Counted from the first letter of the stretch, positions 1 to 27,400 are shown. The stretch is DNA of 43,076 nucleotides from an uncultured Planctomycetales bacterium (GCA_964635405.1 CAZWOH010000002.1:1-43076), one strand, 5' to 3'. Notes: generated by a model not told the origin, from the letters alone. A program made the numbers and translations.

Positions 1-473
1 CAAAGGCCAAGACGGACGCTGGCATCAACCGAGTGTTGAGATTTGAAGATAGACTATTAGGTTATGACTACGTTGGCATCATCAAGAACCTGCCTGACAT
101 GATCGTTCAGATCGTTTCCGTACCGTTTGACTACGTGATTGATTCCCGAGTGAAATTATGGAATGCAAAAGATAGCTTTGGGGCATGGGCAAAAGCCAAG
201 ACGGACGCTGGCATCAACCGAGTGTTGAGATTTGAAGATAGACTCTTAGGTTATGACTACGTTGGCATCATCAAGAACCTGCCTGACATGATCGTTCAGA
301 TCGTTTCCGTACCGTTTGACTACGTGATTGATTCCCGAGTGAAATTATGGAATGCGAAAGACAGCTTTGGGGTATGGGCAAAGGCCAAGACGGACGCTGG
401 CATCAACCGAGTGTTGAGATTTGAAGATAGACTTTTAGGTTATGACTACGTTGGAATCATCAAGAACCTGCCT
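1..473 (+). repeat. In-frame 189-bp (63-aa) tandem repeat, >=2.5 copies, probably continuing upstream of the window
   Basis: Units lie at nt 6-194, 195-383 and 384-473 (partial; it diverges after ctgcct at 473). Nt 1-5 (caaag) match the tail of a unit (gcaaag), so another copy probably lies upstream. Unit peptide: AKTDAGINRVLRFEDRLLGYDYVGIIKNLPDMIVQIVSVPFDYVIDSRVKLWNAKDSFG(A/V)WAK. Copies 1 and 2 differ at 5 of 189 nt (cta/ctc, gca/gcg, gat/gac, aaa/aag synonymous; gca/gta Ala/Val). Confidence 0.9.
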
Positions 474-3400
474 GTTGTGTTGCGGCTTACTCACAATGCG
501 ATTGTTGACGCTTTTGCTAGATTTTTTGTCTGGCTTGTCCTATTTGTACTCGCGCCGAAAGTTTTTCGTTTAAATAAATTCGATGATTTCATCGCTTTAG
601 TGAAAGCCGTATTTACAAATGTCCAAGGGGACAAAGCTGGAATTTTAAGAGCAATAAGAGTTCTCTACGCTTCTGGCGCTTATAAGAGATTTGGCCAAGG
701 CGAATTAGTTCCGCATTTAATCAAATTATTAGAAGATCATCAGGACAATGCAATTATTCATATTGTTGCTTTAACAAAGATGCATCGCAAGACCCGCTTC
801 GGAGCTTTGAAAGGGCTCTTTAGCAAACTACTTCCTTTAAGTCTTTCAGAAAAATTAAGTCAGACAAAAACAAGAATTATCGTCGATGTCCGCAACATTA
901 AAGGCATCGGCGGCGATCGTGATGAAGAAATTTTTATTAATTTATTGGCACTTTCCGCTAACTTAGGTTTACAGCCGGATCAAATTGAAGTTGTGGCAGA
1001 CAAAGAGCAAAAAGTTTGGCGCTTTAGAAATATTGTTTTGCAATTTAATGATGAAGTTGCCGCTGGCCCGCGCCGCGGGATTTTGTATCTTCCTGAAAAT
1101 CTTCTTTCCAGTCAGGATGTCCTGATTAAGTCTAAGATCACAGAACAAAGTGCTGGCTTAGAAGCTCATCCGGCGACGGCTCCGCCGTCCGACGTAAAAC
1201 ATGAACAAATGGCTGCTTCATCTTCCGTCGTTTTACAACCTGCATTTGCAAAAATTTTAGTCGGCGGTGCGATTGTTTTAATGCTTAGCTCGGGATGGTT
1301 TTTGAGCACATTCCCGGCTCTAGGTTCTTTATGGGTCGCATTAGGTTTTGGCGTTGTTAGTAGTCTTCTTTATCTTGTAAGCCGCAATTCACAATCTCCG
1401 ACGAACGTTGGAATTGCCGCTAAAGTTTTTGGCTTGATGGCCATCACGGTTTTGACGACGGCTGGTCTAAAATCAATCGCATCTATTGCTGGAGTAGGAT
1501 CATTGTTCTTAGGGCAAGCAGCGTTAGCTGTTTTTGCAGGTGCTAGCGTAATTGCGTTGAGTGCATGGGCTATTGGATTCTTTAGCAATACGATTAATGA
1601 AAAAGTTATCAAGAGTTTGCGAATTGTTTCCTATCTTGCGATGCTTTTTGCGATGGTGGCAACGGGGATTTTGATTTTAGGGACAGCTTTCCCGGCGGCG
1701 GAAGGAATCATCGAAGGGTCGATGCTTGAATTGATGATCAGGGTTATCGGCGGTCTCTTGTCATTAGCCATCGTGATTTCGATCTTTAAGGGCGCGTTAC
1801 GGTTGACAACCCAAAACGTGAAAGAATTAAATGTCTATCGTTTAACTAATGAAGAGTTAAATATCCGTTTGCGCTATTACGGTACGCTTTTAGGCAACGC
1901 TGGACTTATTCCGCAAGTGCAGGCGATCATCGATAATTCCGATTTGCAAAAGAAGAGAAACTTCTTAATCGATTTGATGCAACGCGATTTCCAAAACAGC
2001 ATTCGCGCTGTTCAGAGCAAACCGACGCGCTTTGTGCGTATCGAAGCTTTCCGTCAGTGGTTACGTGCAAATCGTATTGAGTTTGCCGAAGAATTTATTG
2101 GCGCCTTGCTCTCGACGCTTAATTTTATTTGGAATATCGCCGGCAAATTCCACTTCACGCAAAATAATTCTGGCATTATCCGCAACTCAATTTTATTTGT
2201 GGTCGCAGTTGGATTGAGTCTTATCCCAGCTTTCTTCTTGTTCCTCGGAGAATTAACGTATAACTTCTTTGCTCGTCATGCGGTGCGCACCTATGAATTT
2301 TTGCGTATGCAGGAAGTTCTCTTAAATGCCTCGCAGCCTACAAAATTGACTGCTCAACAAATCAATGCCGAAAACGCTCGTCGTATTCTTAATGCGCAAA
2401 TTGCGGATGCCAATGTCAACAATAATGGACGTTGGTTGAGAGTCAAACGTGAATGGTTTGCTTTCAGCTTGGCGCATCCGATTATGGCCAATGCTTTGAA
2501 TTTGTTCAAAGGCCGTCTTTTGATCTTTATCGTCGCGGAACCTTTGTCGACGATGGTTAAAGCTCTCGCGGTGGGCTTAAACGGTACAGCTTTAGGAATA
2601 GTTTTAATGCCAATTGTTTTCGCTTTGACTTTAATCTTTCACGTTATTAACGAAATTCTTTTAAGCGTCTTTGGTTTGATCGGTGGAGCTTTGGGAGCAT
2701 TCCTTGTGAGCACAATGCTTTCTCATCGCGCTGATAGCATCGCGCGGGTTTTCCTCATGAGCTTTATATTGTCGTTTATTAGTACAGTCAGAACGATCGT
2801 CCACGCTTTTATGGAATATCGTTATGCCGGCCTCGTTGAAAAGAATAAATTAACAGGATTTAAAGATCAAAAAGGTCGTCCCGTCGCGTCGATTGAACAG
2901 ATTGCTTTAGCCCGCATGATTGAGAATCCAAAAGATTTAGAGAGCTGGATGAATGATGCGGCTGTGCGTCAACAGTTCCTTTCCGGATATCTTTATGCCC
3001 AAGATAGCAGTTTAGCCCGCATGGTTATCGGAAATAATCGTTGGTCAGCGCGAGTCAAGATTTATCTTAGCGAAGGCCGTGGTCGAATTTTGGTCTTTGC
3101 TTTGGCTATTCCTGCGGCGATTTTTATTTATCTTTTAAATACCTTTATTCCGTTTAATTGGATTCATAAAGCTACTGGCAAGCTTTTTGGGACAACAGGT
3201 GCTGGTTACGAAAGAATTGATACGCTTTATCAGCAATTAGGTAATCTGAAACTTGCATTTTGGTCAGGTGTCGTCGGTATGATGACGATCAATGCGGAAA
3301 TCGAAGGCGCGCTTCATTTTGCTGATAAGATCGGCGGGACACCGGGTCAAGTGATCACTTCTTGGGAACGCGATGTTCTTAATATGGGACATGCGTTTAT

Positions 3401-6400
3401 GGGTAATAATTCTCAGGAAGGGCTTTATGGACTTATAACGGCCGGCAATAAATTTATTTATGGCCCCGATGGTTTGGAAGTTGGACCTGCAGTGGTGACC
3501 AATGCCATTTATCGTCAGGCGGGTGTCAATACACAAGAGGCAAATGCAGCGCTTTATTATCAGGCTTACCGCGAAGGCCGTATTTCCAGCTTGCCTCCGA
3601 TTGCTTGGACTTTGGCTAAGGATATGGAAAAAAGAACGCATGCGACATTAACGCAAGAACAATTTGCGCGTGTGCTTATTTCTGCCGGCCTTATCGCTGA
3701 TACACGAGATGCCAATGCTAAGGGTAAGGCGCTAAGTCAAGAAGTGCGCGATTTGATTGATCCACATGTGGTTGATTTGATTGAGACAAAGTACCTTAAT
3801 AATGTCAGCAATCTATTTGAGAGAATTAAGATTGCTATTGGTATTCCAGGGCAAGTAGCTGACGGTGATTTGCTTGCTTCTGCGCAAAAATATAGCCAAG
3901 AAAACGATAAGCCGGTTGTGACCCTGCAGCTTTTCCCCAAGCAAGAGTCTGATGTTCGACAAGGAACCTATTTAGTTGTACGAAATGATAAAGAACAAGA
4001 AGTTTTAGTTGTTTCTGCGAATCGCCATGATCCACTTGGCGTTGTTCCTGCCGCGGGGATTATCGATCAAAATAAGGGTAAAGTTTTCACGGCATTTTTA
4101 GTGATTGATTCAAAGGATTTAGTGTCTGCTTTGATGGCTAAGAATCTCGCAGAAACACCGTTAGCTCAAAGTTTATCGGATATGTACCAGCGTGTTGCCG
4201 AAAAAATGGGCTTTAAGCCCGGCGAGGCTATCATTATGTTGCCGCAGCATGTCGGGTTTGAAAAATTTGCCCAAGCGCTTCAAGGCGAGAAGACAATTGA
4301 AGTCAAAGACAAGGAAGAACTTGAGCCTAAAGAGAAAATTAAACCCGGCGAAGAAGTTAAAAACGGGGAAAAAGAGACTCCAGCGATTGAAAAATCGTTT
4401 AGCCTTAACGATATTATTAAGGGGAATAAATTTGATTCCTGGAGAAGCGTTTATTTAAATATTGACGCTTTTGAAGTGATAAGAATGACATTAGGAAACC
4501 TTGGATTGCCGTTGCGCAATAATACATGGGAAGAATTCCAACGTACTATTTCCGTTTTTGATACAGATAAATCGCTTTCTTTTAAAGAAACTCTTGGAAA
4601 AATAATTAAGTTGGATTCGGACCGCATCGATAGCGAAAAACAAATCGCGAAGTTTAAGGATGTTGACAACAATCAATATGCCAAGAAGTTGTTTGAGCAG
4701 AAGAATCTTCAATATCAGTTGCAGGACGCGAGAGATTTAGCGATTGCGGCAGAAACCAGCAGTTGGGAGAGATTTGTTTTGTGGGTAGGGGAGCTCTTTA
4801 ATACAGCAGAGAGCCAGTTTAGAAATGAATTAAAGAATACTCAAAAAACAATAATAAATCTTGAGCGCACACAAGATGCTCTAAAGATAGCTCTTGCTGC
4901 TAATGTTTCCGTCGAAAATATTCGTAATCTGGGTGCTGAGCATTCTTGGTTTGTTGCGCAAGTTGAGGGCATTAATGTTCTTGAGCCTGCTGGCTATCAA
5001 AGACTTAAATCTACTTTGACTCAACGAACTATCCGAGGGAGCATCTTTATTTTAGATATTGATGAAGATGCCCGGGCAAGCATTATAACGTTGTTAAGCC
5101 ATCAAAACACCGTTGACGATAATTTGTACGCCTTGTTGGATCCTTCAAAGAAGACTGCTGCTAAACCTGCACTTTTAAATGGCTTGCGCTTAGCCATGGT
5201 AAATGCTGCTCAGCAAGAAGAAAAATTATGGAATAGTAATTCATCATTAGCTACGACCATAGCAAAACAAAAAATGCTTGCGGCGAGTGTTAACGCGAAT
5301 GCGATGAGTGTTCATGATTATTTTAATGCTTTGACAAAGAATTCCGATCTTCCGGCTGAGAAATTTGTCGATATGAAAAAGACGGCTTTAGAAAGAATCA
5401 GCAAGACGATAAAAGAACTTAACCTTTCTTCTCAGATGCAGATTGAAGAAACTACTTTTGTTTTAGCTGATATTTATACGAAATTATCTAAGGAATATCA
5501 GAAAAATTTGATGGTCCTTCAAAGCAGTAAAGAAGCTTTATTAAATAGTAATAATGACGAAGAGAAGAAAAATCTGCAGGCCCGCATAACGGGTACGCAC
5601 CAACAATTAGATACAATCGCGCAAGACTTAAAGTTGTTAAATAAATTTAAGAATGAATTAGCCAAGACAAATGTTTATGTTGCAGAAGATATTCTTGGTG
5701 CGCAAGAATTGTACGAATCGGTTGCACAACCGGCCTTGACTGTTTTACTCGATTATGATGCTGGGAAAGTTAGCTTTGCGGATGTCCGCTCAGTATTCTC
5801 AGTGATCAATGCGAAAATCGAATTATTAAATATTAAACATGAAATATTTATTACTAGAAATAAGATCGACAATTTGGAAAAAACGCCAAGCCTCGAGGAA
5901 GCAAATGTTCAAAATCCGAGTTTGTCTAACGCTCGCAATGAAGTTAGAAAGGCAGAAGCTGATGTGGCACGTACACATCTTGCCTGGTTGGAGGCGATAG
6001 TAGCTCAAACAAGTCATGGAAATATCGCTGACCAAAAAGAGCAATCTGCTCGCGTCTCTGATCCAAAAGCAGAAAAATTGTCAGCAGCTCCTTCGTCCCG
6101 CGCTGATGGGGCTGACAGTGCTTATTATGGTGTTGTTAACAGTAATGGTGAGCTTAAAGAAGCAGCAAAAATATTAAAAGACGTCTGGGCTGGCAAGGAC
6201 TCAGAACTTTTGGTTCGCGGCTTAACGTATTCAAAGGTTGTCGGGTCAGATTACAGGAACGGGTTTGATTGGGACAAAAATATTGGCGATATCCAAAAGT
6301 TAAAAGATATGGGTGTTAAAACGATTCGGACGTATTATCCGATCACCTCCGAGCGTTTTCTCAATGAATTAGCCAATCAGGGCATCAAGGCGATTATCGG

Positions 6401-9400
6401 CATTCCTAATTATGATGATCGTTATAATCCAGGCCCGGACATTAGCCGCGGCGGATATAAACATTATATTGAGAAATATAAAAATCATCCTGCAGTTTTA
6501 ATGTGGGAATTTGGGAATGAATACAATTACCATCCGCAATGGTTTAATGGGAATGTTGATCAATGGTATTCCATTTTGGAAAATGCCGCTGGTAATGCAA
6601 AACGCATTGATCCGATGCACAAAGTTTCGACAGCCCACGGTGAAGTTCCTTTAGCTGGTGTTTTACGTCAGGTTCCGTCGGTCGATGTTTGGGGGCTTAA
6701 TGTTTATCGTCCAAATGTTTCGGATGTATTCAGCGATTGGAAAAAAGCGGTTACAGAATCTGCAGCGCGCAAAGACCTGCAATTCTATTTTTCTGAAACA
6801 GGGGTTGATTCATTTGATTGGGCTGAAAGAAAAGAAGATCAGGGTAAGCAAGCTCGTCACATGAAAAATATTTGGAATCAGGTGCAGATGCAAGCTAAGA
6901 CTCAGCCTGGTGTTTTCTTAGGGGTAACATTTATGACTTTTGCGGATGAAAGTTATAAATCGGAAAAATCAGATGACAAAACTGCTTTAGAAAAAACCTC
7001 TTTGTCAGCAAACCGCAACGGACAAAGCAATCGTGAAGATGCGAATTTGGTTATTGCGCAAGAAGCGGTTAGAAATGCGCAGGCGGATGTTGTTCGTGCG
7101 CAGCAGACCAACAAGCAAATAATTCAAGCCCTAGCTGCATTAGAACAAGCTCAAAAACAAGTTCTATTGATTTATCAAAAACGGTTGGATTTAGTAACTG
7201 CTGTCGAAAAGGCACAGAAAGAAGTCCAATTGGCGTTTAACAATGGTGATTTAGCCGCCTACACGAAAGCCACTTTGACGCTCGCTATAAGCGCATATCA
7301 AGCTGGTTTTAGCAATGATCGCGATAAAGCCAATTTGCGTAAGCTACTTATTGAAGGAAGTATTCTTCCGATACTTAACGCACCGATGGTCATTATTGAG
7401 CAGCAGGACATTAAAGCGCTTAGAACGCAATTGCGTGATCAGTTAACTGAGCTTCTTCCGCGTTTATCAATTGACACTTTAATTAAACTTCAGAAAGCAC
7501 GTTCGAGTGAAGATATTCTCAAAGTCGTGATGCACGATTATTCTGGGCTTGATACGGCGACCAAACGGCTGATCGATGAAATTAATACCGTCTTTTATCG
7601 TCTCGAGGGCCGCAATAATATCGGGAATTCTGCTCCGCTTGATCGCAATGAAGCGCTTTTCTTGCCCGGACAAGGCGGAACATTTAGTGAATTAGACAAG
7701 CCGATTATTCCTTTGATTAATGGCGTTATAAAGAGCCGTTTCCCCGATGTTAATGTTCATGATTGGTGGACGAGATTTGCGATTGTCCAAATTCATATTG
7801 AAAGCAATGGTAATGCGTCAGCGGTCAGTTCAGCCAAAGCTCGCGGATTGACTCAGGTTACCGAACCAACATGGAATCGGACAGTGGATTACATGGTTGC
7901 TCAAGGAATTATTCCTAACCGTAATGGCTGGTCATTTGCTGATAATGCCGATAATCCGGTTAAGAATTATATGGTTGGGCATTCGTATCTTGCCATTATT
8001 ATTAAGGAAATTGATCGTAAGTTTGCTGGTAAAGTTTTGACCTTAAGTGAATTTACGAATGCCGTTTCAGCTGCTTACAATGCGGGCGAAAATTATAGCG
8101 CCGCTTTCTATTTAAAACCGACGATTGATGAAACTGTTAAATATGTAGCCAAGGCGGCACATCTTTTAAAACACATGACAACGGATGAAAACGGTCGTAT
8201 CGTTTCTCTGGATGAGGCGGGACGAAAGGTCTTTTTCACTCGAACACTGGCTGCTTTGCGGATCAAATCTGACAGCATTAATAATAAAGATTTTGATCAG
8301 CTTGCCGCCAAGTTCGACGGAACAACCCTTTCTACAGAAGATTCCAGCAATTATAAAATTAAGCCGCAAAGCAGCGATATCGGCCCGCTGCTCGAGATGA
8401 TCGTTCCGCAAAAGTCTGCGGTACGCGCAATCTTAAGCGGTATTGTTACTCAAGTTGCGACTACTCCTTATGGCCAGTATGTCAAAATTTCTTCGATGAT
8501 CAACGGACATCGCGTTGAGCAAATCTTTGCTTATATGGGTGGTGCTTTGAAAGCCGAAAAGGCCTTAGGCCAAGAAGTTAAGGCGGGTGCTTTAATTGGC
8601 ATGTCTGGTTTGCAACAAGGTGCTAATCGTTATCTTTTTGCCCTCAAGATCGACGGCAAAGCGGTTGATGTGATGAGCGTTAATGAAAAAGAAGACGGTT
8701 CTCTAAAAACGATTCGCACGATGGTCGCTAAAGCTGTGCAAGACAATTTTAACGCGCTTACCGGTCGCGCCACGATCAAAGTTATGACACCAGAAGAACG
8801 CGAAGACGCGATGAAAGAAGATTTGGCTAAGATACGTCAAGATGCAGAAGACAGGATGGCTGCTTTAGATTTATTGCGTAATCGCAATGATGCGGAGCGT
8901 CAAGAAGTAGCGCGCAGGAACGCTGCCGTGGATATGGTGCGCGCTATTGCGAATACTGCCCGAACTCATCCCGAAACGGCTTTACATGACATGGTCGAAG
9001 AATTAGCAAAACTTGATGCAACAAGCAATGGAAGACTAGGACACGGTGTTAGTATTCAACTGAGATTTAATCCGGCCGCTCTTGGCTTAAATGTTGGAAT
9101 TGGCCGGCAGGCTGTTTGGGGTGGATTGAATTTATCGCTTGTCGGTACCGGTGAATTCTTTACGCTGGCAGAAGTTGTCATGCAGACAAAGAGTCTTTTA
9201 GGTCCTCCTGCCCCGGGTGTTTCCTCTGCGCAGAGAACGCTTGGCATCTTGTTCTATGTGGATGCCTTAATGAGTGTTTACAATTCATTGGTGGAACGTT
9301 CGCTTAACTTAGAAGAATATGGCGGGATCGGAATGGATCAGGGCACCAATCCGCTCTTTGGACGCACCAAGATTATTGTCAGCCCAGAAATCAAAGGCAA

Positions 9401-18400: not shown

Positions 18401-21400
18401 TGAAGACGCTGTTGTTAAGCAGGATGAGCTGTTAGTCGAAGTCTTAGAAACCCCGTGGCATCAGCAGACCAATGGTTTGTATGAAGAATCCAAAGCGTTA
18501 GCGGTCAGTCGGTATCTCTTACCTAATGATCCTTGGAATCGTTCTTTAGCCAAGAGAATGCCGTCCGGCGAAGTTGCTCTCGATCAATTAAATAAAGATC
18601 AAGGGAAATACGATCTCTCTCCCGGTCAGTACGTGACTACGCCGAATATTAAAGGTTTCTCATCGGAAGCTAATCTTTTGCGTCAAACAGAATTTATCGG
18701 TATGTTCGATGAAGATGGCGACGGAATAAAGGAGACAGCTCGCTACAAAGCTACCAAAGAGGCTATTGAGAAAACCCAATTCGTTATGATCGGATACAAC
18801 CTTAAGACAGGGATATATTATGAACAACGTCGATACGTTGATAAGACTTTGCGTGTGTATTATTTTGATGGGTTTCCGCTTTTTGTTAATTATATAGATA
18901 ATCCTTACGCGGATTATCCTAAAGAGTATCAGTTTAGTAGCTTAGAGAACAGAGTATATACCGATGAAAAAGGTGATGTTTATTATATCGTGATCGAGCA
19001 TTTGCAGACGCGCGATATTTTTGAGCGATCCAAGAATTGGATTTCTGGTGAGACCGTAGTTTTATTTAAAAATGGTAAGCGTGTTTATACTTCCGATCGG
19101 TTTAAGGGGCAGACTTCGCCGTATTTGACGACGTTTAGTTTAGAAGACGTATTGCGCAATTCTATGGTTGGTCAAGCTGTTAGCCCTAATGAGTTTAAAG
19201 AAATTATGGCCGCTGCCCGTAAAGGTAAGCTTTTAGAGTTTGATGTTGCAAAGCAAAATCCTGCTAAAGAGCCTTATGTGGGTGAAGGCACAGACAGTTG
19301 GACGAACTTTGCTTTGAAAGTTTTAGGGCCAGGATTATTGTGGGTAGTTGCTGCAATCTTTGGTATACCGGCGGTGTATTACGCTTTAATCGCTTTCGCA
19401 TTGTGGTTTTATCGTGTAGTGATGGGTAAACGTGGTCAGGTCCGGATTAATGATCCGATTTTGGATGATTTGACTGGCATGGGCTTTACTCCGGCTCAAG
19501 CTCAATTTATTATTCGCGACTGGAGCATTAATGGGGCGTTTAAAGGGCCGAAAGATTTTCGTCTGCGCATGGCGGGTGATCGTGTGTCTGAATTTAACCT
19601 TGCTAATTTACACATTGAGTCTTCTAGCCCCGAAGGCTGGGCTGTGAAACATATTATTAAGCGCTGGATTACCCGGACACGTTTTGCAGGTGCATTAAAA
19701 CACGCCGCACATTTTGATTATGGTTATACTCGTCGTGAAGGTGAAAAGTTCAATGGATTTAGCAAGGGTGATTTAATTAATTTAAGCAATGCTGCAAACA
19801 AGAGCGCTGCGGATTTTGCGCAAGCTTGGGGTGCCTTGTATCAGGTGTCGGCTGAGGAACAATCAGGTTTTGTATCGTTTACGACGATGGTGACAACTGC
19901 TGGATATATTTCTGAAGATGAGATTCGCAGTGTGGTTAACAGTAATTTTATTACTTCATTTGTAGGCAAGGTCAGTACTCGCCGCGCTGCTCAGATTATT
20001 TTGCGTAAGATTTTTGCGATAGTCCGCGATTCTCAAAATTATAACGAAGCCCTTGAGGCGCGAGTCGATGAACTTATGAAATCGACCGGAATGGATAAAG
20101 TTTTTTCGGATCAGGATTTTACTTTAAAATCTACCTTTTTGAAAAATATTCAGAATGCTCGCCTCTTGCCCGCCGGGTTAAGCTTGCACGACTTTGATAT
20201 TACATCTAAGAATGGTCTCCTTGCTTATAGCTGGGACGATTTGCACAAAAGCCCGCCGTCGGATCGTCAAATGGTTAATGCTTTAGTCTCAATTGAGAAG
20301 TTGTTTATTATGCAGATGGTGTTGCAGAGATCGCTTTTTGGTTTGACGGGTCAAGGTCGTCTTGAGGAATATCTTTGGACTAAACATTTATATCCGATTT
20401 TGAAGAGTAGCGATGTAGAAGACTATATGGATGTTCTTCCAATTATTCGATTTTTTAAAGAGGTTTTTCATCAACTGCTACACAATGAAGTTCACAAGAA
20501 GTTAGACGAAGTTCGCGATCCTAAGGGCAAGATCGTTTATATGCAGCAGATATTTAATGAAGAATTGCTTAATGATGCTTTTCGTTATTTATTGGGCGTC
20601 AAGGATCCAAGTCTTTCGGATGAGACGTGGATTTTAAGCGATAAAGTAATAAGTGAGATTCAACCTTTGGCGCAAGAGATCAATCGTTATTTCGATGCTC
20701 ATGTTCAATTTTTCCGTCAAAATAATGGCTTAGCTGAGTTTTCAGCAGAAAGTGTTAAAGAGCTTTTACAAGACGAAAGTGTCAAAAAGATTATTAATCC
20801 TGATGAAAAGTTGTTGACAAAGGACGAACTTGACCAACTTGGTGAAGGCGATAAATCGGTTTCTAGGAGTTTGGTTGAGAAAATTATTATTATTCGTGCA
20901 AGTATGCGTTTGGAGCCGATTCTTAAGGCTTTTGTCAATGTTGTGGATAAGGAAATCAAAATGCCGGTGGCTAAGAATCGGTTGGCTGTTTGGATGATTC
21001 ATTTGGTCCCAGTTATAAAGATGGTCTTTAGTTCCAAATGGCGCAAGAGAATTTTCTCCTCCGGTGGTCCGTATAATCAGACAGCCAGAGATTTCTTGCG
21101 TCGGTTTAATCATTATATTTTATTTGGATCAGTCACGGGATTGTTTGTTTATTTGAGTATGCATGCAGTGGGATATTTTAGTCATGTTGGTGTTTCTGCT
21201 TCTATTACATTGCCGACAGCTATGTTGGGGGTCCCAATATTTGTTCTTTTAAGTTTGCTCTTTTTTGGGGTAGTTTTAAAGGCAATTCGCAAGAATTTTG
21301 ATAAAAAGAGAAACGATATTACAAGCGGCACAAAGACTCCCGCACAGAAGGCCGAGCTTTTAGTGAAAGCGAATAACACCTTCAAGCTTTGGTTACAAAT

Positions 21401-24400
21401 CTTTTATGGTGGGCAATTGGTTATTTTAGCTGTTCTCTTTATTTTGGGAATTAGCGGAGTAGCAGTGAGTGAGATAATTCCTGTTTCTATTGTCCTTGCT
21501 ATTCCGGATGCAATTAAACAGATTTTGTTGTTTATTCCGTATTTGATTTTTATTGCGACTTGGCGTTTGAGTTTTTATGCGGCTAACTATTTCTTTATGG
21601 GCATTGCAACCTGGGGATCGCATATTGTTAATAACACGTATGAGCTTAATAACAGAAACAAGCCGGATCAGATTAAAACGGCCTTAAAGAAATTGTTGAC
21701 CGATCCGACGCCAGCGTTATTAACTCGCGAATCTGGTCAAAAAATGCCATCGCGTGGGCATGAACGCGTTGAGGCTTTCAAGATCGTGTTGAGGGAATTA
21801 GGTGGTGATGAGGATTATTACTATTTGATTAGCAAAGAAACAATTGTGGATTTTGAGGAAGGCAAAATTGATATCAATGTTATGGCCGACAGGATTGTCG
21901 ATGAGTTAAGTGGAAAGCTTTATGATCAAAATGATTTAGTAGGTCAGGATGCTAAGACCCAAAATGCCATTATTTCTGCTAAGCGTGAGTGGAGCTTGTT
22001 GCGTTTAATTGAATGGATTAATGATCAATATCGCCTTGATCGAGGGTTAGAGCCGATGAATTGGGACGAAGTTCTGCCCGTAAGTCAGATTATGGAAGCG
22101 GCTGCCGAGGATCTCTTTTATACACCCGAGCAACTTTTGACGTACGACCCTACTGATAAAGACGTTTCTTACATGACCCACCGTTTAGGGATGTTGGCTC
22201 AAGCAAGGACAGAACTCTTTTTGTTGATGATAAAGCGTTTATTGCCAAGTTTGACTATACAAAAAACAAGAGAATTAGTAGAAAAAGATTTTTCGACTGA
22301 AGCTTTAAAACCGATTAAGGCGAGTTTTGATAGATACTTAAGCCAGTTTAACGAAAATGATGAGGCATTTAGAGATTCAGTACGAAAAGAATTGCAAAAG
22401 ATGATCACAGATGGCCAATATTTACCTCTTGCGATTAGTCAAGAAAACAAAGCCGTGCTTTTAAACGCTAAAAAATCATTGGTATCTTTGATGGTTTATT
22501 GGAATATTTGGCCAGAGATTCAACGCTGGGCTACTTTCCAACTCCCAACGATGTGGGCCAATGCTCGTTCTCAGAAACGTACTTTAACGAAATTATATAG
22601 TTATTACGCCCAGATGTTTGGTATGCCTAACGATAAAAGTACTCATGAAGAAGTTGAGAAAAAAATCCGTGTGATTAATAGGCATTTGGGTAGTTTTGCT
22701 GCTATGGATGCAGCATTGGGTGGTAAGCTTCGTGAAGTTATCGATGCTTTAGAGCGGACACATTATAAGGAAACATTTTATGTGGATGAAACAGGGAAAG
22801 TATATGGGTTTGAAGACGCAGTTGAATTCCTTCGTCAAAAGAATTCTGTTTGGGGAGAGATGATGGATCTTGTTAAAAATGATCGAGTTTTTCCAGCCTT
22901 TCATAAAGGTGATGTTCGTGGGAAAGGGGAGATAACCGAGATTTATCATTCAGAAAAATGGAATACCAAGACTGTGGCTATGCCCTATTTTATCGGTCCA
23001 GTTTTGTTGACCGTTGATGCTGATCATCGTGCGAGTTTGGCTGGACAGAATGGGTTTGCAGCTGCTTTGATGGATTTCTTTTATCAGCCCGGTATGGCCG
23101 CTGCGATTCCTGTGGTGCATCAGGATCTTACTAAAGGTGTTGGCCCCTTAGGTGACGTCGTCCCTGTTGGTGAAAATGCATTTTATTTTCATACTCAGCA
23201 GGGCAAAATGTTGTTTGGCGGCTTAGGGGCTTATGGAAAATTCTTTGAGCGCGTCACGCCGATGCGTTGGTCAGAAGGCATCACAGATTCTTACGTTGCT
23301 GAGGATATCGAAACCGTTTTGCGTTATCGAGGGTTTGGTTATACGGTTGGGCGTACTTCATATATCAAAACTGAAAAGGGATGGCCGAATCAGTTTACGC
23401 AGGCTCGTAATCCGACCCGAAAGTGGTCGTATGATTCTGTAGAATCGGTTACTGGCCGCACGCCGCTTAAGCTTTTATTATCACCGTATGTTGATTGGCC
23501 GTATCGTATTAATAATTTTATTCTTGATGGTTTTGGATTTTATTTTAAGAAGCCGATAGTCAATCGCTACATTAAGTGGTTGGTGGTTTTTTCTTTAATC
23601 TTGGACTGGAATTTGTTTAGCGGCCTTGCTCTGGGGCTGTGGGTAGGAGCGTTGTTGTTATCGCAAGCGATTAGTTTTGGGTTGTTATTCTATAATAATT
23701 ATGATCAAGCTTTAGGTTTTTGGCGTGGGTTGTGGCTGACATTTAAAATGGTTTCTGGCAAGATGTATTGGTTTTATTTGTATATGCTTAAAACTTATGA
23801 AGAGACGATTGGTCTTTTGGCGGCAAACCGGTTAGGGAGATTTCTTTCGACCGCAGGGAAGGCAGGAAACATTTTGCGTACCCCGGATTGGCGCGAACTT
23901 TACAAGATTACCTTTTTCTCGCAAAAAGCGGGAGCTCTATGGCTCTTGGTTTCGTTAGTGGCTATTGGCTTTCATCCGTTTAAGAGTGTTTTATGGATAT
24001 TGACCTTACTCTTTCCTTTGGCAGCTTTGATTGCCCCGTATGTTTTTAATCCAGCTCGCCCAGAGGCTAACATACAAAAGAGAATATCGATGCTTGCAGC
24101 TATCCCAGTTTTAGGAATAATTTCTGGCGCAATCCTGTGGGCTGGGTCTTGGGTTCTTGGGCTTGCATGGGTGGAGTTGCTTATTCTATATGTTAGAGTT
24201 AACTTAAAAAATCAAGCGATCACGGTGAATTTCAATAAAGATCGTTGGGAAAATGTTTGGCATATTCTTTTGGGCTTTTTCTGGGGATTAACGGATGTCA
24301 TTATGGCGGCGCATTATAAATTATCTCGTCTCTTCCCTTGGAATCGTAGAGAGGAAGATCGTTTGCAGGCATATATTTGGGAGTATGGCAAGCAAGTTCA

Positions 24401-27400
24401 ACCAAAGCTCTCGAGTGCTATGCAAAAAGAAACTTTGGAAAACTTGAAGTTGTTTGCTCAATACCCAACTCATAATCGCATGATGTATACGCGCGTTCCA
24501 CTTCCGATTGTTTTTCACTCTATTGATATTTTCACTTGGGTGCATGAAGGCTTTGTAAATCGTTTTAAGACCGCAAGTGACAATGAGGAAAAAACTACAG
24601 CCGCCGCAAAGGCCTACGAGCCAATCCTTCAAATCTGGAAGACTTCAGTCAAGCCTCAAAATCAAGCAGTTGATCAATATAAATATAAGTCAGCGCAGAG
24701 CCCTGATGTTGTCGCTTATGTCAAAACTCTCAAGGATAGAGTTATGTATTTGAAGGTTTATTTTGCAGATCTCGCTTTAGCGAAAGAAATGGATAAGAAT
24801 TTTCAGAGAAATATCAATGTTTATCTCCAAGTTCTTAAAGATATTGAGGACGCTTTGCAACAAAAAACGGGGCAATCAGATTCCTTATATCTACGACGGT
24901 TAGAGGAAATTGATTGGGAATTGACAGAGATGTCCTTCTTCCCGCATAAGCCTGTTAAACGTGCTAGCTTAAAGAGCGCAGCTGGGTGGAACACCCTTAA
25001 CGGGATTAAAGTCAATTTAGGTAATGTTGTCAGTAAGATTTGGTTCTCTGTAAAATCAGTTATGAGATTTTCTCGCGATCGCGTTTTACATATGATTGGT
25101 GTCGAGGATACATTTATTGCATTGTTTGTTTATGCTTTCATGGTTCCAATGGCAATTTTGACTGGCGTTTTATCTATTTTAAAGCGGATTTTGGTTGGCT
25201 TAGATCGCGTTTTTCTCAGAGGATTTGCAAGAAAGAAAGTGATAAACATTTGGCATAAACAAGAAGCCACTGGTGCGGCACTTTCTGGTTATCCGGCTTT
25301 GCCAATGTCGAAGCGTATGGCTTTAAATGAAAAACATACGCTTTATAATTTTGGTAAAAGTTTAGGTGGTGAGAAATCTATTAACGAAACGGATGAAAGT
25401 AAGTCGCTGGATTTGATACGTTTACTTCTGGACAATGATAAACTTGAAGAATTTATTAAGTCATCAGCAAACAAAACTTCTACCGCCTCCAGCTCAGCGA
25501 TTGTGGACTTTAAAGAACTCGAAACAGTCCAATGGTCTAAAGAGCATCAACCTAAATCTTCTAGTTCGACACTGGACATAAAAACTTTCCCAATCCTTGT
25601 TTCTGCTATTGCGGGAATGCAGGATAAAAATATTTTGGTGACGGTGACATTGAAAGACGCAACAACTGGCACAGTTGAGATTAAGTTTGATTCTCCGTCA
25701 GAAGAAGACGTTTTAGAAGCTTTACAATATGCTTTTGATCAGCAAAGACAGAACGAAAAAGATATGAAAAATTTAGTGGCTTGGTTCCCAGCGCCTGAGA
25801 AAAAGCTTTTTGGCATGATGACTAAAGCGCCTGTGAGAACTTTTACTCTTCGATTCCATGGCATGGCAGGCAACATCGCTTACGTAAAAGATAATACCAT
25901 TTATGTTTCTCATCATGCTCTACGTGCGCCACCAGTCTGGGAATTTAGCATGGATTACAAACAAGCCCGCCGTAGATTCCTTAACATTATCTTTTCTGAT
26001 GAAATTGAACACCTTCTGTATCCAAACCAAACTCAAGCCACGACTCATCAGCATCTGATTGCCCGCTTGGGAAATAATCAAGACGATGTCATGGCATTGT
26101 ATTATTTCGTGAGCGACATAAATTTTGTTGTTAACAATGAAGATTTGCAGGGTCTTTTAGAAAAAACATCGGCACAAAGATTAGCTAATTATTTGGCTGG
26201 GCAAGGTTTGACTGTATCACAGTTAAAAGCCGGTGGAAAAAATATCAATGATTTAGTCGTTGCCGGCAACGATGATTTAAATACATTAAGAGCTGTTGTC
26301 GAGTTATTTAGCAATGGCGTTGGGCAGAGAATTATTATTCTTGGTGGCTTCGGTCGGTTGACGATATCTTTAGTTAGACGAGCTGTCAAAGCTGGGTATA
26401 GTATCCAATTATCAGCAACAGAACAAATTAATAGTTCAAATTTTGCAGAGTTTGAAAAGCGGGTCATGCGTGCTCCACGAGCCAATGATCTATTAAAAAT
26501 CAGCGAAGCTCAGATTATCAAGCAGATCATGTTTCAAATTATTTCTAAGAATTATCCTGCAGTAATTCAAAGATTCCAAGAGCCAGGCCGTATTGTCATC
26601 GAAGAGTCTTCGACAAATACTCTTGATAATTATAAAAAGTATCATGACTTTCTCGTTGAGGATGCGCGTTTTAAGACACAAACTCAACAAAATCAGCCGT
26701 GGACTATTGTCAACATTAGCCACCCGTTGTTAGAATTTCGTACCCAAGCAACCTATCAAAAGGTTTTTGAGTCACTCATTGCCCAAGGAAAAATCCGCGG
26801 GACATCTTTAGCGCAAGAATATCAAGTTAATGGTTTGGAACGCTCGGTAAGAGAAAGACTTATTGACGAGGTGTTTAGAATTATTATTTATTCACAGCAT
26901 GAGGATATCCGTATTTTATGTGGTGAAAAGAAAGGTTTAAACGCAATTGATGCAGAATATTTTCTGGTGGCAGTGGAGTTATTTAATGGACTCAATGAAG
27001 ATTATGAAAGAAATTTATTAGCTAATCAGCTTGTCGCAGCGTGGGTGACATATCCAGCAAAAGGGCGTTTGTCCGAAGAACAAATGCGCGCAGGTTTATC
27101 ACCTGCTACGTTGGAATTTTTTGAGACGATAGTTGCTTTCTTTGATACAAAAGATCTCTTGAATAAACAACAGGAATCTACCGTCGAAAGAATAGGTCCT
27201 AAAAGTTTTATGGATACCCCAGTTAATGGATCATTTGTTGAAACAATCCCCGTTGACCGGCTAACGAAAGAGTTGGAGGACAGGACAAGGGCTATGCGTT
27301 CACCTGAAAAACTAACAGCTGAGCTGGTTGGGCGTGTCTTAAAGGCTTATAGCAATAATACAGTTTTGGCTGAATGGCATCTTGCCACCTATTTGGTTCA

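What the first reader, a model, noticed from the sequence alone, without database searches (positions are those of the whole stretch)
1242..25200. Predicted topology: a ~16-kb (~5,400-aa) extracytoplasmic segment between TM clusters, followed by a cytoplasmic enzyme tail
Strong hydrophobic helices are confined to nt 1242-3160, 19308-19425, 21110-21620, 23510-24320 and 25110-25200. The long TM-free stretch 3160-19308 contains the modules that act on the cell envelope or extracellular polymers (GH-A, lytic transglycosylase, LytM-like). Everything after 25200 consists of families that need cytoplasmic substrates such as ATP, nucleotides and sugar phosphates. This suggests one polypeptide that spans the membrane many times, projects an enormous exposed arm and keeps an ~18-kb cytoplasmic tail. 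That arrangement would suit a cell-surface attack or attachment machine, as proposed for predatory or epibiotic bacteria. The arrangement is inferred from hydrophobicity by eye only. The 19308-19425 segment could be one helix or a hairpin, which would change the parity of the model.
Basis: inference. Interest (0 to 1): 0.8.

Follow-up and report, generated by a model that had tools for sequence, protein, structure and literature searches.

The report
Giant membrane protein hiding glycan synthase
The window is one unbroken 14,358-codon piece of a giant bacterial gene whose clustered membrane helices are real, but the central clusters are the channel of a cellulose/beta-glucan-synthase-like enzyme, so the protein looks like a sugar-polymer factory with a huge outside arm rather than a simple anchor for an attack arm.

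Summary
The whole window is one open frame (nt 3-43076, 14,358 aa, no stop). Strong hydrophobic helices lie almost only at nt ~1224-3158 and ~19305-25202. The segments between and after them are TM-free.

- **Outside arm.** The ~5,400-aa segment (GH-A, SLT, degenerate LytM, five to six ~130-aa repeats) is most likely extracytoplasmic.
- **Basis.** This rests on a new result: aa ~6100-8400 is a conserved module. Its core matches solved FKS1 beta-1,3-glucan synthase and BcsA cellulose synthase by profile and by fold.
- **Topology chain.** That match fixes the glycosyltransferase domain in the cytoplasm. Four conserved helices then link it back to one conserved helix (nt 19320-19412), which returns the arm from outside.
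- **TM clusters.** The clusters at nt 21110-24320 are therefore a glycan-export channel, not mere anchors.
- **Tail.** A cytoplasmic tail fits its enzymes, its composition and its 19 cysteines (none in the first 8,972 aa). Helix parity is unresolved, and it hinges on nt 24084-24203 and 25113-25181, not on 19308-19425.
- **Not found.** No HD domain was detected, and the first 2,400 aa of the tail carry no recognisable domain.

Giant multi-TM, multi-enzyme proteins are already described in Omnitrophota. The embedded synthase is absent from the two giant-gene preprints and from two targeted full-text searches.

The parts
3..43076 (+). One continuous open reading frame (14,358 aa), a fragment of a larger giant gene
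   Evidence: 0 stops in this frame against 595-1348 in the others. Third-codon-position differences dominate against relatives L001 and L002. Relatives are also fully open.
1..474 (+). 189-nt (63-aa) tandem repeat, 2.5 copies; the cause of the assembly break
   Evidence: TRF finds 97% matches. L001 carries two more copies, and the end of L003 overlaps the repeat.
1227..3149 (+). TM cluster 1: about 12-14 helices (aa 409-1049). The last helix (aa 1029-1049) is predicted to run in-to-out.
   Evidence: The flank before the last helix has 4 K/R and the flank after has 2. Helix positions are conserved in L001 and L002. No homologues or families were found.
3150..19319 (+). TM-free segment of 5,390 aa, predicted extracytoplasmic
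   Evidence: Only 2 windows reach KD >= 1.6. K+R enumeration gives 36 for outside against 20 for inside. Zero cysteines.
6291..6992 (+). GH-A TIM-barrel glycoside hydrolase (GH158-like), with GNE and SETG catalytic motifs
   Evidence: PDB 9oro GH158, E 1.3e-6. Weak Pfam GH2_C hit. Homologues at 34-57% identity include proteins with a Por secretion tail. Motifs seen.
7791..8093 (+). SLT lytic transglycosylase domain, with the E-S and AYNAG motifs present
   Evidence: PF01464, E 3.2e-12, 46.5 bits against a cutoff of 21.3. Sequence.
8400..8669 (+). Degenerate LytM/M23 domain (no HxH metal ligands)
   Evidence: PF01551, 29.5 bits against a cutoff of 28.7. The sequence shows RYLFALK where HLHFE would be.
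13080..15350 (+). Five to six tandem ~125-137-aa repeats of an unannotated domain
   Evidence: Self-BLAST. Iterated HMM gives 5 copies at E 1e-46 to 1e-55 plus one weak copy. Alignment A1.
19320..19412 (+). Helix o: one conserved TM helix, predicted out-to-in, that ends the outside arm
   Evidence: KD 2.2. It is a single 22-31-aa helix in 6 homologues, followed by a K/R-rich stretch. Flanking K+R is 1 before and 4 after.
19413..21110 (+). Conserved cytoplasmic domain: a ComEA-like helix-hairpin-helix motif followed by a helical domain of unknown function
   Evidence: Collinear in P0015, P0016, P0018, P0019, P0021 and P0029. HHH_3/HHH_6 hits in 3 of 7 members, and PDB 8dfk at E 0.005.
21111..21629 (+). 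Four TM helices (p, q, r, s) plus a conserved interface motif (IFIATWRLSFY) before the GT domain
   Evidence: The q-r loop has 6 K/R in its first 15 residues. Invariant T-W-R-L...N-Y in alignment A4.
21630..23576 (+). Cytoplasmic GT-A glycosyltransferase domain of a processive synthase. Motifs: VDADH (nt 23013-23027), VAEDIET (nt 23295-23315), RKW (nt 23418-23426).
   Evidence: Profile A2 against PDB: FKS1 E 3.5e-17, BcsA E 7e-11. Foldseek top 34 hits are all membrane-integrated synthases. The long model's top 9 hits are Fks1/Fks2. Pfam on alignment members: Glyco_trans_2_3 in 9 of 20, Glucan_synthase in 6 of 20. Motif positions.
23577..24047 (+). Channel helices u, v (hairpin), a long interface helix, then w, x (hairpin). 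Equivalent to FKS1 TM7-TM10 and BcsA TM5-TM8. Ends with a cytoplasmic FNP motif.
   Evidence: HMM alignment to FKS1 residues 1282-1492. AF2 helices at aa 7845-7866, 7874-7901, 7906-7942, 7971-7988 and 7992-8015. FKS1 topology from PMC12715860.
24084..24203 (+). y/z: a 40-aa hydrophobic insertion absent from most homologues; either a hairpin or a single span (first parity uncertainty)
   Evidence: Alignment A3 shows a gap here in 10 of 12 homologues.
24255..25112 (+). Conserved amphipathic helix A (FFWGLTD) and a conserved ~265-aa domain, both predicted cytoplasmic
   Evidence: Helix A has a maximum KD of 0.4-1.5 in most homologues. It aligns to the cytosolic stretch after FNPHQF in FKS1.
25113..25181 (+). 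Helix B: a conserved hydrophobic helix with a central Pro; either spanning or re-entrant (second parity uncertainty)
   Evidence: KD 2.31. Conserved in 8 homologues, with 14-24 hydrophobic residues and Pro in 6 of 9 sequences (the window and 8 homologues). K+R in the 20-residue flanks is 4 before and 7 after.
25182..43076 (+). TM-free tail of 5,965 aa that runs off the window; probably cytoplasmic. Domains: APH (nt 32424-32624), CBM48 (32865-33038), HAD (33177-33731), GH77 (36063-36518), DUF1152 (39009-39476), NagB/6PGL-like (42543-42908).
   Evidence: Pfam and NCBIfam. PDB HAD and AMPK-CBM hits. All 19 cysteines of the protein lie at aa 8973-13975. Composition log-likelihood ratio.

Best explanation
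The window encodes part of a giant (>14,358 aa, probably >17,700 aa) inner-membrane protein of an uncultured PVC-type bacterium. The polypeptide crosses the membrane in clusters.

**Proposed layout**
1. After the first cluster it emerges on the outer side as a 5,390-aa arm. The arm carries a GH-A glycosidase with both catalytic glutamates, an SLT lytic transglycosylase, a degenerate LytM domain and five to six ~130-aa repeats.
2. One conserved helix (nt 19320-19412) brings the chain back into the cytoplasm.
3. A conserved ~2,300-aa module follows. Its core is a processive, membrane-integrated glycosyltransferase of the cellulose-synthase fold, closest to fungal FKS1 beta-1,3-glucan synthase and bacterial BcsA.
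4. The module's GT-A domain (DxD, ED and RKW motifs intact) sits in the cytoplasm. Its flanking helices (nt 21111-21629 and 23577-24047) form the channel through which the growing glycan is pushed out.
5. A long TM-free tail with kinase-like, HAD phosphatase, glycogen-binding, amylomaltase-like and sugar-phosphate-isomerase-like domains most likely stays in the cytoplasm. There it may feed or regulate sugar supply.

On this reading, one polypeptide joins cytoplasmic sugar metabolism, polymer synthesis and export, and outside glycan and peptidoglycan remodelling. This resembles the separate BcsA/BcsZ-type components of exopolysaccharide systems.

**Shown:** the ORF; the helix clusters; the domain identities; homology of the core to solved synthases; conservation of the module.

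**Inferred:** the side of each segment; that helix B is re-entrant rather than spanning; the nature of the polymer; functional coupling between the parts.
For: **ORF and helix clusters:**

**Conserved module**
- 62 representative proteins match aa 7193-8392 (E down to 1e-202). Many are 2-7.5-kaa proteins.
- The matches are collinear from window aa ~6100 to ~8350.

**Synthase identity**
- Profile A2 hits FKS1 at E 3.5e-17 over FKS1 residues 1084-1492, and BcsA at about 1e-10.
- The AF2 model (pLDDT 69, pTM 0.69) gives Foldseek hits only to BcsA, Chs1/2, Fks1, hyaluronan synthase and CesA in ranks 1-34.
- The 1,200-aa model's top 9 hits are Fks1/Fks2.
- Asp7672, Asp7674, Glu7767, Asp7768, K and W are invariant or nearly invariant.

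**Topology**
- In FKS1 the GT domain is cytosolic, between TM6 and TM7, and EL4 is extracellular (PMC12715860).
- K+R enumeration favours the long arm outside, 36 against 20.
- Helix o is a single helix in the family, with a K/R-rich C-flank.
- GH-A relatives carry secretion tails.
- In homologue P0026 a GH-A domain is bracketed by positive-inside TMs.

**Tail**
- Cytoplasmic-type enzymes.
- Homologues P0013 and P0018 carry a phosphoribosyltransferase domain after helix B.
- All 19 Cys lie in the tail.
- Its composition resembles the module's cytoplasmic domains.
- Helix B has a central Pro, only 14-18 hydrophobic residues in several homologues, and a more positive C-flank.

**Context**
- The Elusimicrobia relative P0042 is followed by a 3,234-aa GT5/GT1 protein.
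- West-Roberts et al. report pilZ genes next to giant genes.
Against: - The window's own Pfam hit to Glucan_synthase is far below threshold (E 0.19). Homology rests on a family profile and a medium-confidence model. The 1,200-aa model is poor (pLDDT 55).
- The canonical QxxRW motif is only partly present (RKW).
- The polymer made is unknown.
- Helix B is strongly hydrophobic in the window (KD 2.31, Hessa dG -0.75). Standard predictors would call it a TM helix. With y/z as a hairpin, that would put the tail outside.
- In P0018 and P0026, helix B seems to span and is paired with a second TM.
- The cysteine-free zone also covers the cytoplasmic GT module, so it is not a clean compartment marker.
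- No function or homologues were found for TM cluster 1 or for about 4,500 aa of the arm.
- No proper topology predictor (DeepTMHMM or TMHMM) was available. The scales used were re-implemented from memory.
Confidence: 0.55

Rival explanations
1. The TM clusters only anchor the protein. The exposed arm is a weapon or adhesin used by a predatory or epibiotic cell to breach prey walls, and the tail is a cytoplasmic enzyme bundle.
For: GH-A, SLT and LytM-type modules sit in the TM-free arm. Relatives are labelled Omnitrophota and Elusimicrobiota. For these lineages a predation or episymbiosis role for giant proteins has been proposed (West-Roberts 2023). Tandem ~130-aa repeats could act as a stalk.
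Against: The central TM clusters and the domain between them are homologous to processive glycan synthases, so they are not mere anchors. The LytM domain lacks metal ligands. An SLT next to a trans-envelope machine is commonly used on the cell's own wall (established knowledge for T3SS, T4SS and flagella). Nothing in the window shows passage across an outer membrane. The lifestyle of the source organism is unknown: its nearest record is labelled 'uncultured Planctomycetales bacterium'.
Confidence: 0.2
2. Helix B (nt 25113-25181) is a true membrane span and y/z is a hairpin. The ~6,000-aa tail then lies on the same (outer) side as the hydrolase arm. Its 'metabolic' domains would act outside the cell or inside a host or prey after delivery.
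For: B has KD 2.31, is conserved, and behaves as a spanning helix paired with a second TM in P0018 and P0026. KD and TopPred helix counts give even parity between the arm and the tail. West-Roberts et al. found most domains of giant proteins predicted as extracellular.
Against: APH-type kinase, HAD, GH77 and 6PGL/NagB-like domains need ATP or sugar phosphates. The PRPP-dependent domain after B in P0013 has no compensating TM. Cysteines appear only in the tail. The tail's composition differs from the arm's. The C-flank of B is the more positive one, 7 against 4. West-Roberts et al. themselves call some predicted localisations highly unlikely.
Confidence: 0.2
3. The reading frame is not made as one polypeptide. 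It is either an assembly or annotation artefact across a repeat, or a precursor that is cleaved into separate membrane and soluble proteins. In that case a whole-chain topology has little meaning.
For: The window starts in a tandem repeat that breaks assemblies. In relative L006 the homologous region is split between two frames. West-Roberts et al. discuss possible proteolytic processing by C39 or S8 domains.
Against: 43 kb without a stop in one frame, against hundreds of stops in the others. Purifying selection is evident. The same collinear order appears in several independent assemblies. No peptidase of the C39 or S8 type is found in the window. Cleavage after membrane insertion would not change the sidedness of the parts.
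Confidence: 0.1

Closest known systems
Fungal FKS1/FKS2 beta-1,3-glucan synthase (GT48; PDB 7xe4, 9pe1, 9wzv)
   Same: Best sequence-profile match (E 3.5e-17), collinear over FKS1 residues 833-1500. Shared features: a cytosolic GT-A domain inserted between TM groups; two helical hairpins after the GT domain with a long interface helix; an FNP motif followed by an amphipathic W..D.F-type helix. The 1,200-aa model's top 9 structural hits are Fks1/Fks2.
   Different: Four rather than six helices precede the GT domain. The extracellular TM7-TM8 loop with its disulfide is deleted. TM11-17 are absent. There is no detectable AC domain. The Pfam Glucan_synthase score is far below threshold. The module is embedded in a >14,000-aa bacterial polypeptide, not a ~1,900-aa eukaryotic enzyme. 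The product has not been tested.
Bacterial cellulose synthase BcsA (GT2; PDB 4p00, 4hg6, 9b8v) and its periplasmic partner glucanase BcsZ
   Same: Best Foldseek match for the 391-aa core (E 5e-4, TMq 0.50). It shares the DxD and ED motifs and an R/K-W motif at the QxxRW position, with the channel helices arranged as TM5-6 / IF3 / TM7-8. The pairing of a synthase with a glycoside hydrolase on the outer side is also shared.
   Different: No PilZ domain and no BcsB-like partner in the window. The hydrolase is fused into the same chain and belongs to clan GH-A, not GH8. Sequence similarity is limited to the GT core.
Giant Omnitrophota proteins ('Archaeovorin' type, West-Roberts et al. 2023; 'multi-enzyme metabolic cluster' class, Nielsen & Lui 2026)
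   Same: A very long single ORF. TM helices in clusters at about 2% of residues. A mix of glycoside hydrolase, glycosyltransferase, HAD, kinase and sugar-metabolism domains. Divergent domains. Homologues of the module are labelled Omnitrophota.
   Different: The fragment carries no SecA-DEAD, methyltransferase, NUDIX, C39 or dockerin domains. The nearest genome record is labelled Planctomycetales. The two preprints contain no occurrence of 'glucan synthase' or 'cellulose synthase' and none of 'cysteine'. West-Roberts et al. excluded TM regions from structure prediction.
Re-entrant membrane helix of monotopic phosphoglycosyl transferases (PglC type)
   Same: Helix B is a hydrophobic stretch of about 23 residues with a central proline and basic flanks. 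Standard predictors would call it a TM helix. (Own knowledge; a lead only.)
   Different: No sequence or structural relationship was tested. In two homologues B appears to span the membrane and pair with a second helix.

Membership tests
Processive membrane-integrated glycan synthases of the cellulose-synthase fold (GT2 BcsA/CesA/Chs/HAS and GT48 FKS) | GT-A catalytic domain homologous to solved members | tested here: met
   Profile A2 against PDB: FKS1 E 3.5e-17, BcsA E 7e-11 to 1e-10, E. coli BcsA E 1e-5. Foldseek ranks 1-34 are all such synthases.
Processive membrane-integrated glycan synthases of the cellulose-synthase fold (GT2 BcsA/CesA/Chs/HAS and GT48 FKS) | Catalytic motifs: DxD, (T/x)ED, Q/RxxRW-type | tested here: inconclusive
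   VDADH (aa 7671-7675) and VAEDIET (aa 7765-7771) are present and invariant or nearly so in the family. Only R-K-W stands at the QxxRW position. No activity data.
Processive membrane-integrated glycan synthases of the cellulose-synthase fold (GT2 BcsA/CesA/Chs/HAS and GT48 FKS) | TM helices on both sides of the GT domain forming a channel, with an amphipathic interface helix | tested here: met
   Four helices before and two hairpins after the GT domain. AF2 helix at aa 7906-7942 lies between the hairpins. HMM alignment to FKS1 TM7-TM10.
GT48 (Pfam PF02364 Glucan_synthase) specifically | Score above the curated Pfam threshold | tested here: not met
   Window core: E 0.19, 10.3 bits against a cutoff of 37.2. 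Six of 20 family members hit, at best E 8e-6. Nine of 20 hit Glyco_trans_2_3 instead. It is therefore not filed as GT48; it sits between GT2 and GT48.
Giant Omnitrophota proteins (Archaeovorin type) | Giant ORF with numerous TM regions and GH/GT/peptidase-type domains | tested here: met
   14,358 aa open, about 25 TM helices, and GH-A, SLT, LytM and GT domains. Full length unknown.
Giant Omnitrophota proteins (Archaeovorin type) | SecA-DEAD-like domain, methyltransferases, NUDIX; Omnitrophota origin | tested here: not met
   None of these domains is in the window, although the gene continues beyond both ends. The closest genome record is named 'uncultured Planctomycetales bacterium'. Phylogenetic placement was not testable here.
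SLT lytic transglycosylase (PF01464) | Score above threshold and catalytic Glu-Ser motif | tested here: met
   46.5 bits against a cutoff of 21.3. HIESNG and AYNAG are present.
Peptidase M23 / LytM | Zn ligands HxxxD and HxH | tested here: not met
   Score is borderline (29.5 bits against a cutoff of 28.7). The sequence has no HxH (RYLFALK at that place), and no HxxxD was seen. It is therefore a degenerate LytM domain.
Clan GH-A glycoside hydrolase (GH158-like) | TIM-barrel homology with the two catalytic glutamates (NE... and ...E.G) | tested here: met
   PDB GH158, E 1.3e-6. Homologues carry PF02836. FGNEYN and FSETG are present. Family-level assignment and substrate were not tested.

The most novel reading that the evidence does not exclude
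Giant proteins of Omnitrophota, Elusimicrobiota and related PVC-type bacteria contain a previously unnoticed bacterial relative of the eukaryotic FKS/callose-synthase lineage. It is fused in one chain to an outside GH158-like glucanase and wall-remodelling arm, and to a cytoplasmic sugar-metabolism tail. These giants (or a subset of them) would then be single-polypeptide exopolysaccharide factories. Their polymer, possibly a beta-glucan, could form the contact matrix with hosts or prey. GT48 would then have a bacterial sister group.
Probability: 0.3. Interest if true: 0.8.

Novelty: new variant of a known kind. Interest (0 to 1): 0.6.

Why it matters
Giant multi-TM proteins are the signature feature of Omnitrophota-like ultra-small bacteria, yet their function and even their topology are unresolved. 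The original authors state that predictors disagree and give implausible localisations.

Finding a module homologous to enzymes with solved structures gives a fixed reference point inside the chain: its GT domain must face the cytoplasm. From that point the side of neighbouring segments can be deduced. This turns an open topology problem into a testable one.

It also suggests a concrete biochemical activity, processive glycan synthesis and export, that can be assayed. It offers an alternative to the 'cell-wall attack' reading. And it points to a bacterial relative of the antifungal-target enzyme family FKS.

Tried and rejected
**Searches that found nothing or failed**
- On aa 6400-8450 and on aa 400-1100 it found nothing. 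The word index evidently misses this family. The exhaustive HMMER search found 62 relatives.
- The metagenome scan with the C-terminal 400 aa found no relative, so the end of the gene was not recovered.
- Pfam and NCBIfam on every inter-TM segment and on homologues' flanks gave nothing, apart from the weak SBP_bac_3 hit below.
- phmmer found no similarity between the window's post-B region (aa 8394-10800) and the post-B regions of four homologues, and no PRTase motif anywhere in the window protein.

**Leads rejected**
- The weak SBP_bac_3 hit in aa 7336-7473 is spurious, because that stretch lies inside the GT domain.
- The idea that aa 6471-7036 equals the FKS1 accessory domain is not supported. 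The profile hits only HhH proteins.
- P0013 as a stand-alone, non-giant version of the module is rejected. On its contig it follows a collinear upstream ORF in another frame.

**Weak or limited evidence**
- The 1,200-aa AF2 model had low confidence (pLDDT 55) and could not show whether helix B spans. Coordinates cannot be inspected with these tools.
- Cysteine absence as a clean marker of the exported part is only partly tenable. The cytoplasmic GT module is also Cys-free, and homologous giants are Cys-poor throughout.
- The count of KD >= 1.6 segments alone is not above the shuffle expectation (23 against 23.7). The signal lies in the strong windows and in their clustering.
- HD domain: not found.

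Full report
**What is in the window.** Translating all six frames shows that frame +3 (nt 3-43076) has no stop codon at all. The other five frames have 595-1348 stops. The window is therefore one 14,358-codon fragment of a larger gene, open at both ends.

The frame is under protein-level constraint. Against two related contigs (91.5% and 82.6% nucleotide identity), differences at third codon positions outnumber those at first and second positions: 572 against 267 and 174, and 384 against 156 and 107.

The related contigs come from MAGs recorded as 'uncultured Planctomycetales bacterium', and they are also fully open. The window begins inside a 189-nt tandem repeat. That repeat varies in copy number between relatives and is where assemblies break. 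One relative's contig that ends in the same repeat adds 10.2 kb of further open frame, with more hydrophobic helices. The window start is therefore not the N-terminus, and no signal peptide can be looked for here.

**The observation.** No topology predictor was available. I scanned with Kyte-Doolittle (19-residue windows), with the Hessa biological scale, and with a TopPred-type GES trapezoid. The last two were re-implemented from memory.

All three place strong hydrophobic helices at nt ~1224-3158, 19305-19421, 21111-21629, 23577-24206 and 25083-25202. One more strong stretch at nt 495-572 was not listed.

Composition shuffles show that the number of weak segments is not above chance. Windows with KD >= 2.0 are: 89 observed against 16 expected (maximum 56). 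All 89 lie in aa 165-1052 and aa 6435-8400. The 5,382-aa middle segment has two windows >= 1.6, and the 5,958-aa tail has ten. The clusters and the TM-free stretches are real.

**Domains.**
- *Middle segment.* It holds a clan GH-A TIM barrel. The best solved relative is a GH158 enzyme (E 1.3e-6). Both catalytic glutamate motifs, GNE and SETG, are present. Its closest database relatives (34-57% identity) include proteins with CBMs and a Por secretion tail, and fragments labelled Omnitrophica.
- It also holds an SLT domain well above threshold, with its Glu-Ser motif. A borderline M23 domain lacks the HxH ligands and so is a degenerate LytM domain.
- Five to six tandem ~130-aa repeats of an unannotated domain lie at aa 4360-5116.
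- *Tail.* APH, CBM48/AMPK-CBM, HAD, GH77, DUF1152 and NagB/6PGL-like domains all lie beyond aa 10,800.
- aa 8394-10800 has no recognisable domain, and no HD domain was found.

**The unexpected part.** An exhaustive HMMER search with aa 7193-8392 found 62 representative proteins (E down to 1e-202). Many are 2,000-7,500 aa long. They are collinear with window aa ~6100 to ~8350. Their sources name them as hypothetical proteins of Omnitrophota, Elusimicrobiota and Endomicrobiales.

- A 20-sequence profile of the most conserved 391 residues hits the solved beta-1,3-glucan synthase FKS1 (E 3.5e-17, FKS1 residues 1084-1492) and the bacterial cellulose synthase BcsA (E ~1e-10).
- Family members individually hit Pfam Glyco_trans_2_3 (9 of 20) and Glucan_synthase (6 of 20). 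The window sequence itself does not reach threshold.
- An AF2 model of this core (pLDDT 69, pTM 0.69) matches only membrane-integrated processive synthases in Foldseek ranks 1-34: BcsA, chitin synthases, Fks1, hyaluronan synthase and CesA.
- A lower-quality 1,200-residue model has Fks1/Fks2 as its nine best hits.
- The DxD (VDADH), ED (VAEDIET) and R-K-W motifs are conserved.

The 'inter-cluster' domain aa 7210-7858 is thus a GT-A catalytic domain, and the flanking helices are its channel.

The two preprints on giant Omnitrophota genes contain no occurrence of 'glucan synthase', 'cellulose synthase', PF02364 or PF13632. One of them explicitly excluded TM regions from structure prediction. Two full-text searches that paired Omnitrophota or Omnitrophica with these synthase names found nothing.

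**Topology from the fixed point.** In FKS1 the GT domain is cytosolic, between TM6 and TM7. The TM7-TM8 loop is extracellular, and the stretch after TM10 binds cytosolic Rho1 (PMC12715860). BcsA has the same arrangement (established knowledge).

*Mapping the alignment.*
- Helices u and v (aa ~7845-7901) form a hairpin.
- A long interface helix and the GKAGN loop are cytoplasmic.
- Helices w and x (aa 7971-8015) form a second hairpin.
- The FNP motif is cytoplasmic.

*Upstream of the GT domain.*
- Four helices (p, q, r, s) are conserved. They have strongly basic segments before p and between q and r, and an invariant T-W-R-L...N-Y motif at the end.
- The 565-aa domain before them is therefore cytoplasmic too. 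It begins with a ComEA-like helix-hairpin-helix motif.
- That domain follows helix o (nt 19320-19412) directly. Helix o is a single 22-31-residue hydrophobic helix followed by a K/R-rich stretch in six homologues. It is too short for a hairpin.
- The 5,390-aa segment before helix o is therefore on the other side, outside.

*Independent support.*
- A K+R enumeration over all 8,192 combinations of ambiguous helices gives a best bias of 36 for 'arm outside', against 20 for 'arm inside'.
- The last helix of cluster 1 has 4 K/R before it and 2 after.
- In homologue P0026 a GH-A domain is bracketed by TM helices with basic cytoplasmic flanks.

I put the arm outside at about 0.85. 'Outside' here means extracytoplasmic. 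Nothing in the window shows passage through an outer membrane.

**The tail.** The evidence here is weaker. K+R cannot decide (36 against 35). Simple helix counts give even parity (KD, TopPred) or odd parity (Hessa) between arm and tail.

*Alignment results for the last elements.*
- Helix A (aa 8085-8105) is amphipathic in homologues and aligns with a cytosolic FKS1 stretch, so it is not a TM helix.
- y/z (aa 8028-8067) is an insertion absent from most homologues, so it should be parity-neutral.

*Helix B (aa 8371-8393)* then decides the side of the tail.
- It is conserved and strongly hydrophobic in the window.
- It has a central proline in six of nine sequences (the window and 8 homologues).
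- It has only 14-18 hydrophobic residues in several homologues.
- Its C-flank is more basic in the members that lack a second helix.
- It is paired with a second TM in two members.

*What follows B.*
- P0013 and P0018 carry a PRPP-type phosphoribosyltransferase domain after B. In P0013 there is no compensating helix.
- All 19 cysteines of the window protein lie at aa 8973-13975, with none in the first 8,972 residues.
- With Cys excluded, the tail's composition resembles the module's cytoplasmic domains more than the arm's: 13 of 19 windows against 2 of 17.

I infer that B is re-entrant or otherwise non-spanning in this protein, and that the tail is cytoplasmic (about 0.7). This is inference. 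A standard predictor would probably call B a TM helix.

The cysteine pattern is not a clean compartment marker. The cytoplasmic GT module is also Cys-free, and homologous giants have only 2-9 cysteines in 5,600-7,500 residues.

**Mechanism proposed.** One chain combines three functions.
- A cytoplasmic tail of kinase-like, phosphatase, glycogen-binding, amylomaltase-like and sugar-phosphate-isomerase-like domains.
- A processive synthase that polymerises an NDP-sugar and threads the glycan through its own channel.
- An outside arm with a glycosidase, a lytic transglycosylase and a regulatory-type LytM domain.

Separate proteins do these jobs in known exopolysaccharide systems. A synthase is paired with a periplasmic hydrolase of the same polymer, as in BcsA/BcsZ, and dedicated lytic transglycosylases open the cell's own wall for trans-envelope machines (established knowledge).

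The best solved relatives of the two sugar-active modules are a GH158-family enzyme and FKS1 beta-1,3-glucan synthase. GH158 enzymes act on beta-1,3-glucan (own knowledge). A shared substrate is therefore suggested, but not shown.

Two items of context fit a glycan theme. The Elusimicrobia relative is followed by a 3,234-aa GT5/GT1 protein. West-Roberts et al. report conserved pilZ genes next to giant genes, and PilZ is the c-di-GMP switch of BcsA.

A role of the polymer or the arm in contact with hosts or prey is not excluded. The window provides no direct evidence for attack.

**Comparison and novelty.** The general kind is already described: giant, multi-TM, multi-enzyme proteins in Omnitrophota and neighbouring phyla, with contested topology.

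This locus adds four things.
- A conserved FKS1/BcsA-like synthase module inside such proteins.
- A structure-anchored way to orient neighbouring segments.
- The identification of where the parity problem really lies.
- An extreme, polarised cysteine distribution.

I rate it a new variant of a known kind, with interest 0.6.

Noticed in passing
window 3-26918 versus 26919-43076 (aa 1-8972 versus 8973-14358): There is no cysteine in the first 8,972 residues. All 19 cysteines lie in the last 5,386, including an adjacent pair at aa 12199-12200. Base composition would predict about 283 and 198 Cys codons for aa 1-8393 and aa 8394-14358, and off-frame TGY counts are normal. The relatives L001 (3,857 aa), L003 (3,396 aa) and the upstream ORF of L006 (1,542 aa) have no Cys. 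Homologous giants have 2-9 Cys in 5,600-7,500 aa. The cause is unexplained, and it does not map cleanly onto the predicted compartments.
   Followed up: partly
window 1-474; L001 1-855; L003 10056-10189: A 189-nt (63-aa) in-frame tandem repeat with 2.5 copies in the window and two more in L001. Contigs of related MAGs start or end in it, so it fragments the assemblies of this gene. In L002 the equivalent place instead holds about six extra TM helices.
   Followed up: partly
window 13080-15350: Five to six tandem ~125-137-aa repeats (23-39% identical to the reference copy in alignment A1) with the consensus G-T-V-F...G.I.I.GEPV...VFKL...IPAGTVLE...YYG. No Pfam, NCBIfam or PDB sequence match. 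The fold is unknown; it could be a stalk or a binding array.
   Followed up: partly
window 19440-19600 (aa ~6480-6535): A ComEA-like helix-hairpin-helix motif (MGFT.AQA..I...R..NG.F) lies directly after the TM helix that ends the outside arm. It is conserved in six homologues. Its function next to a glycan synthase is unclear.
   Followed up: partly
window 29808-30059 and 35346-35579 (aa 9936-10019 and 11782-11859): Two ~80-aa stretches of the tail, 1,850 aa apart, are 44% identical (E 3e-12). This is an internal duplication of an unannotated element.
   Followed up: no
window 34145-34660, minus strand: This is the only complete ORF >=150 aa in the window (171 aa, TTG start). It lies antisense inside the giant frame and is most likely a chance ORF.
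   Followed up: no
L006 1-13441 (CAZKUL010000077.1): In this relative the homologous region is split. One ORF, open from the contig start to nt 4628, is collinear with window aa 6354-6782. A second ORF in another frame (nt 4501-13140, P0013) continues from window aa ~6975. This is either a frameshift (sequencing error or programmed) or a genuine gene split just before the four helices that precede the GT domain.
   Followed up: partly
L004 32658-42362 (Elusimicrobia MAG JAJVIP010000006.1): The complete 7,525-aa relative P0042 starts with a classical signal peptide. It is followed directly by a 3,234-aa protein with glycogen/starch-synthase-type GT5 and GT1 domains. A Peptidase_M23 gene and an S8 peptidase with a Por secretion tail lie upstream.
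   Followed up: no
whole window: GC skew is positive in every 2-kb bin (0.06-0.23), with a higher plateau (~0.20-0.23) at nt 14000-24000. The coding strand is G-rich throughout.
   Followed up: no
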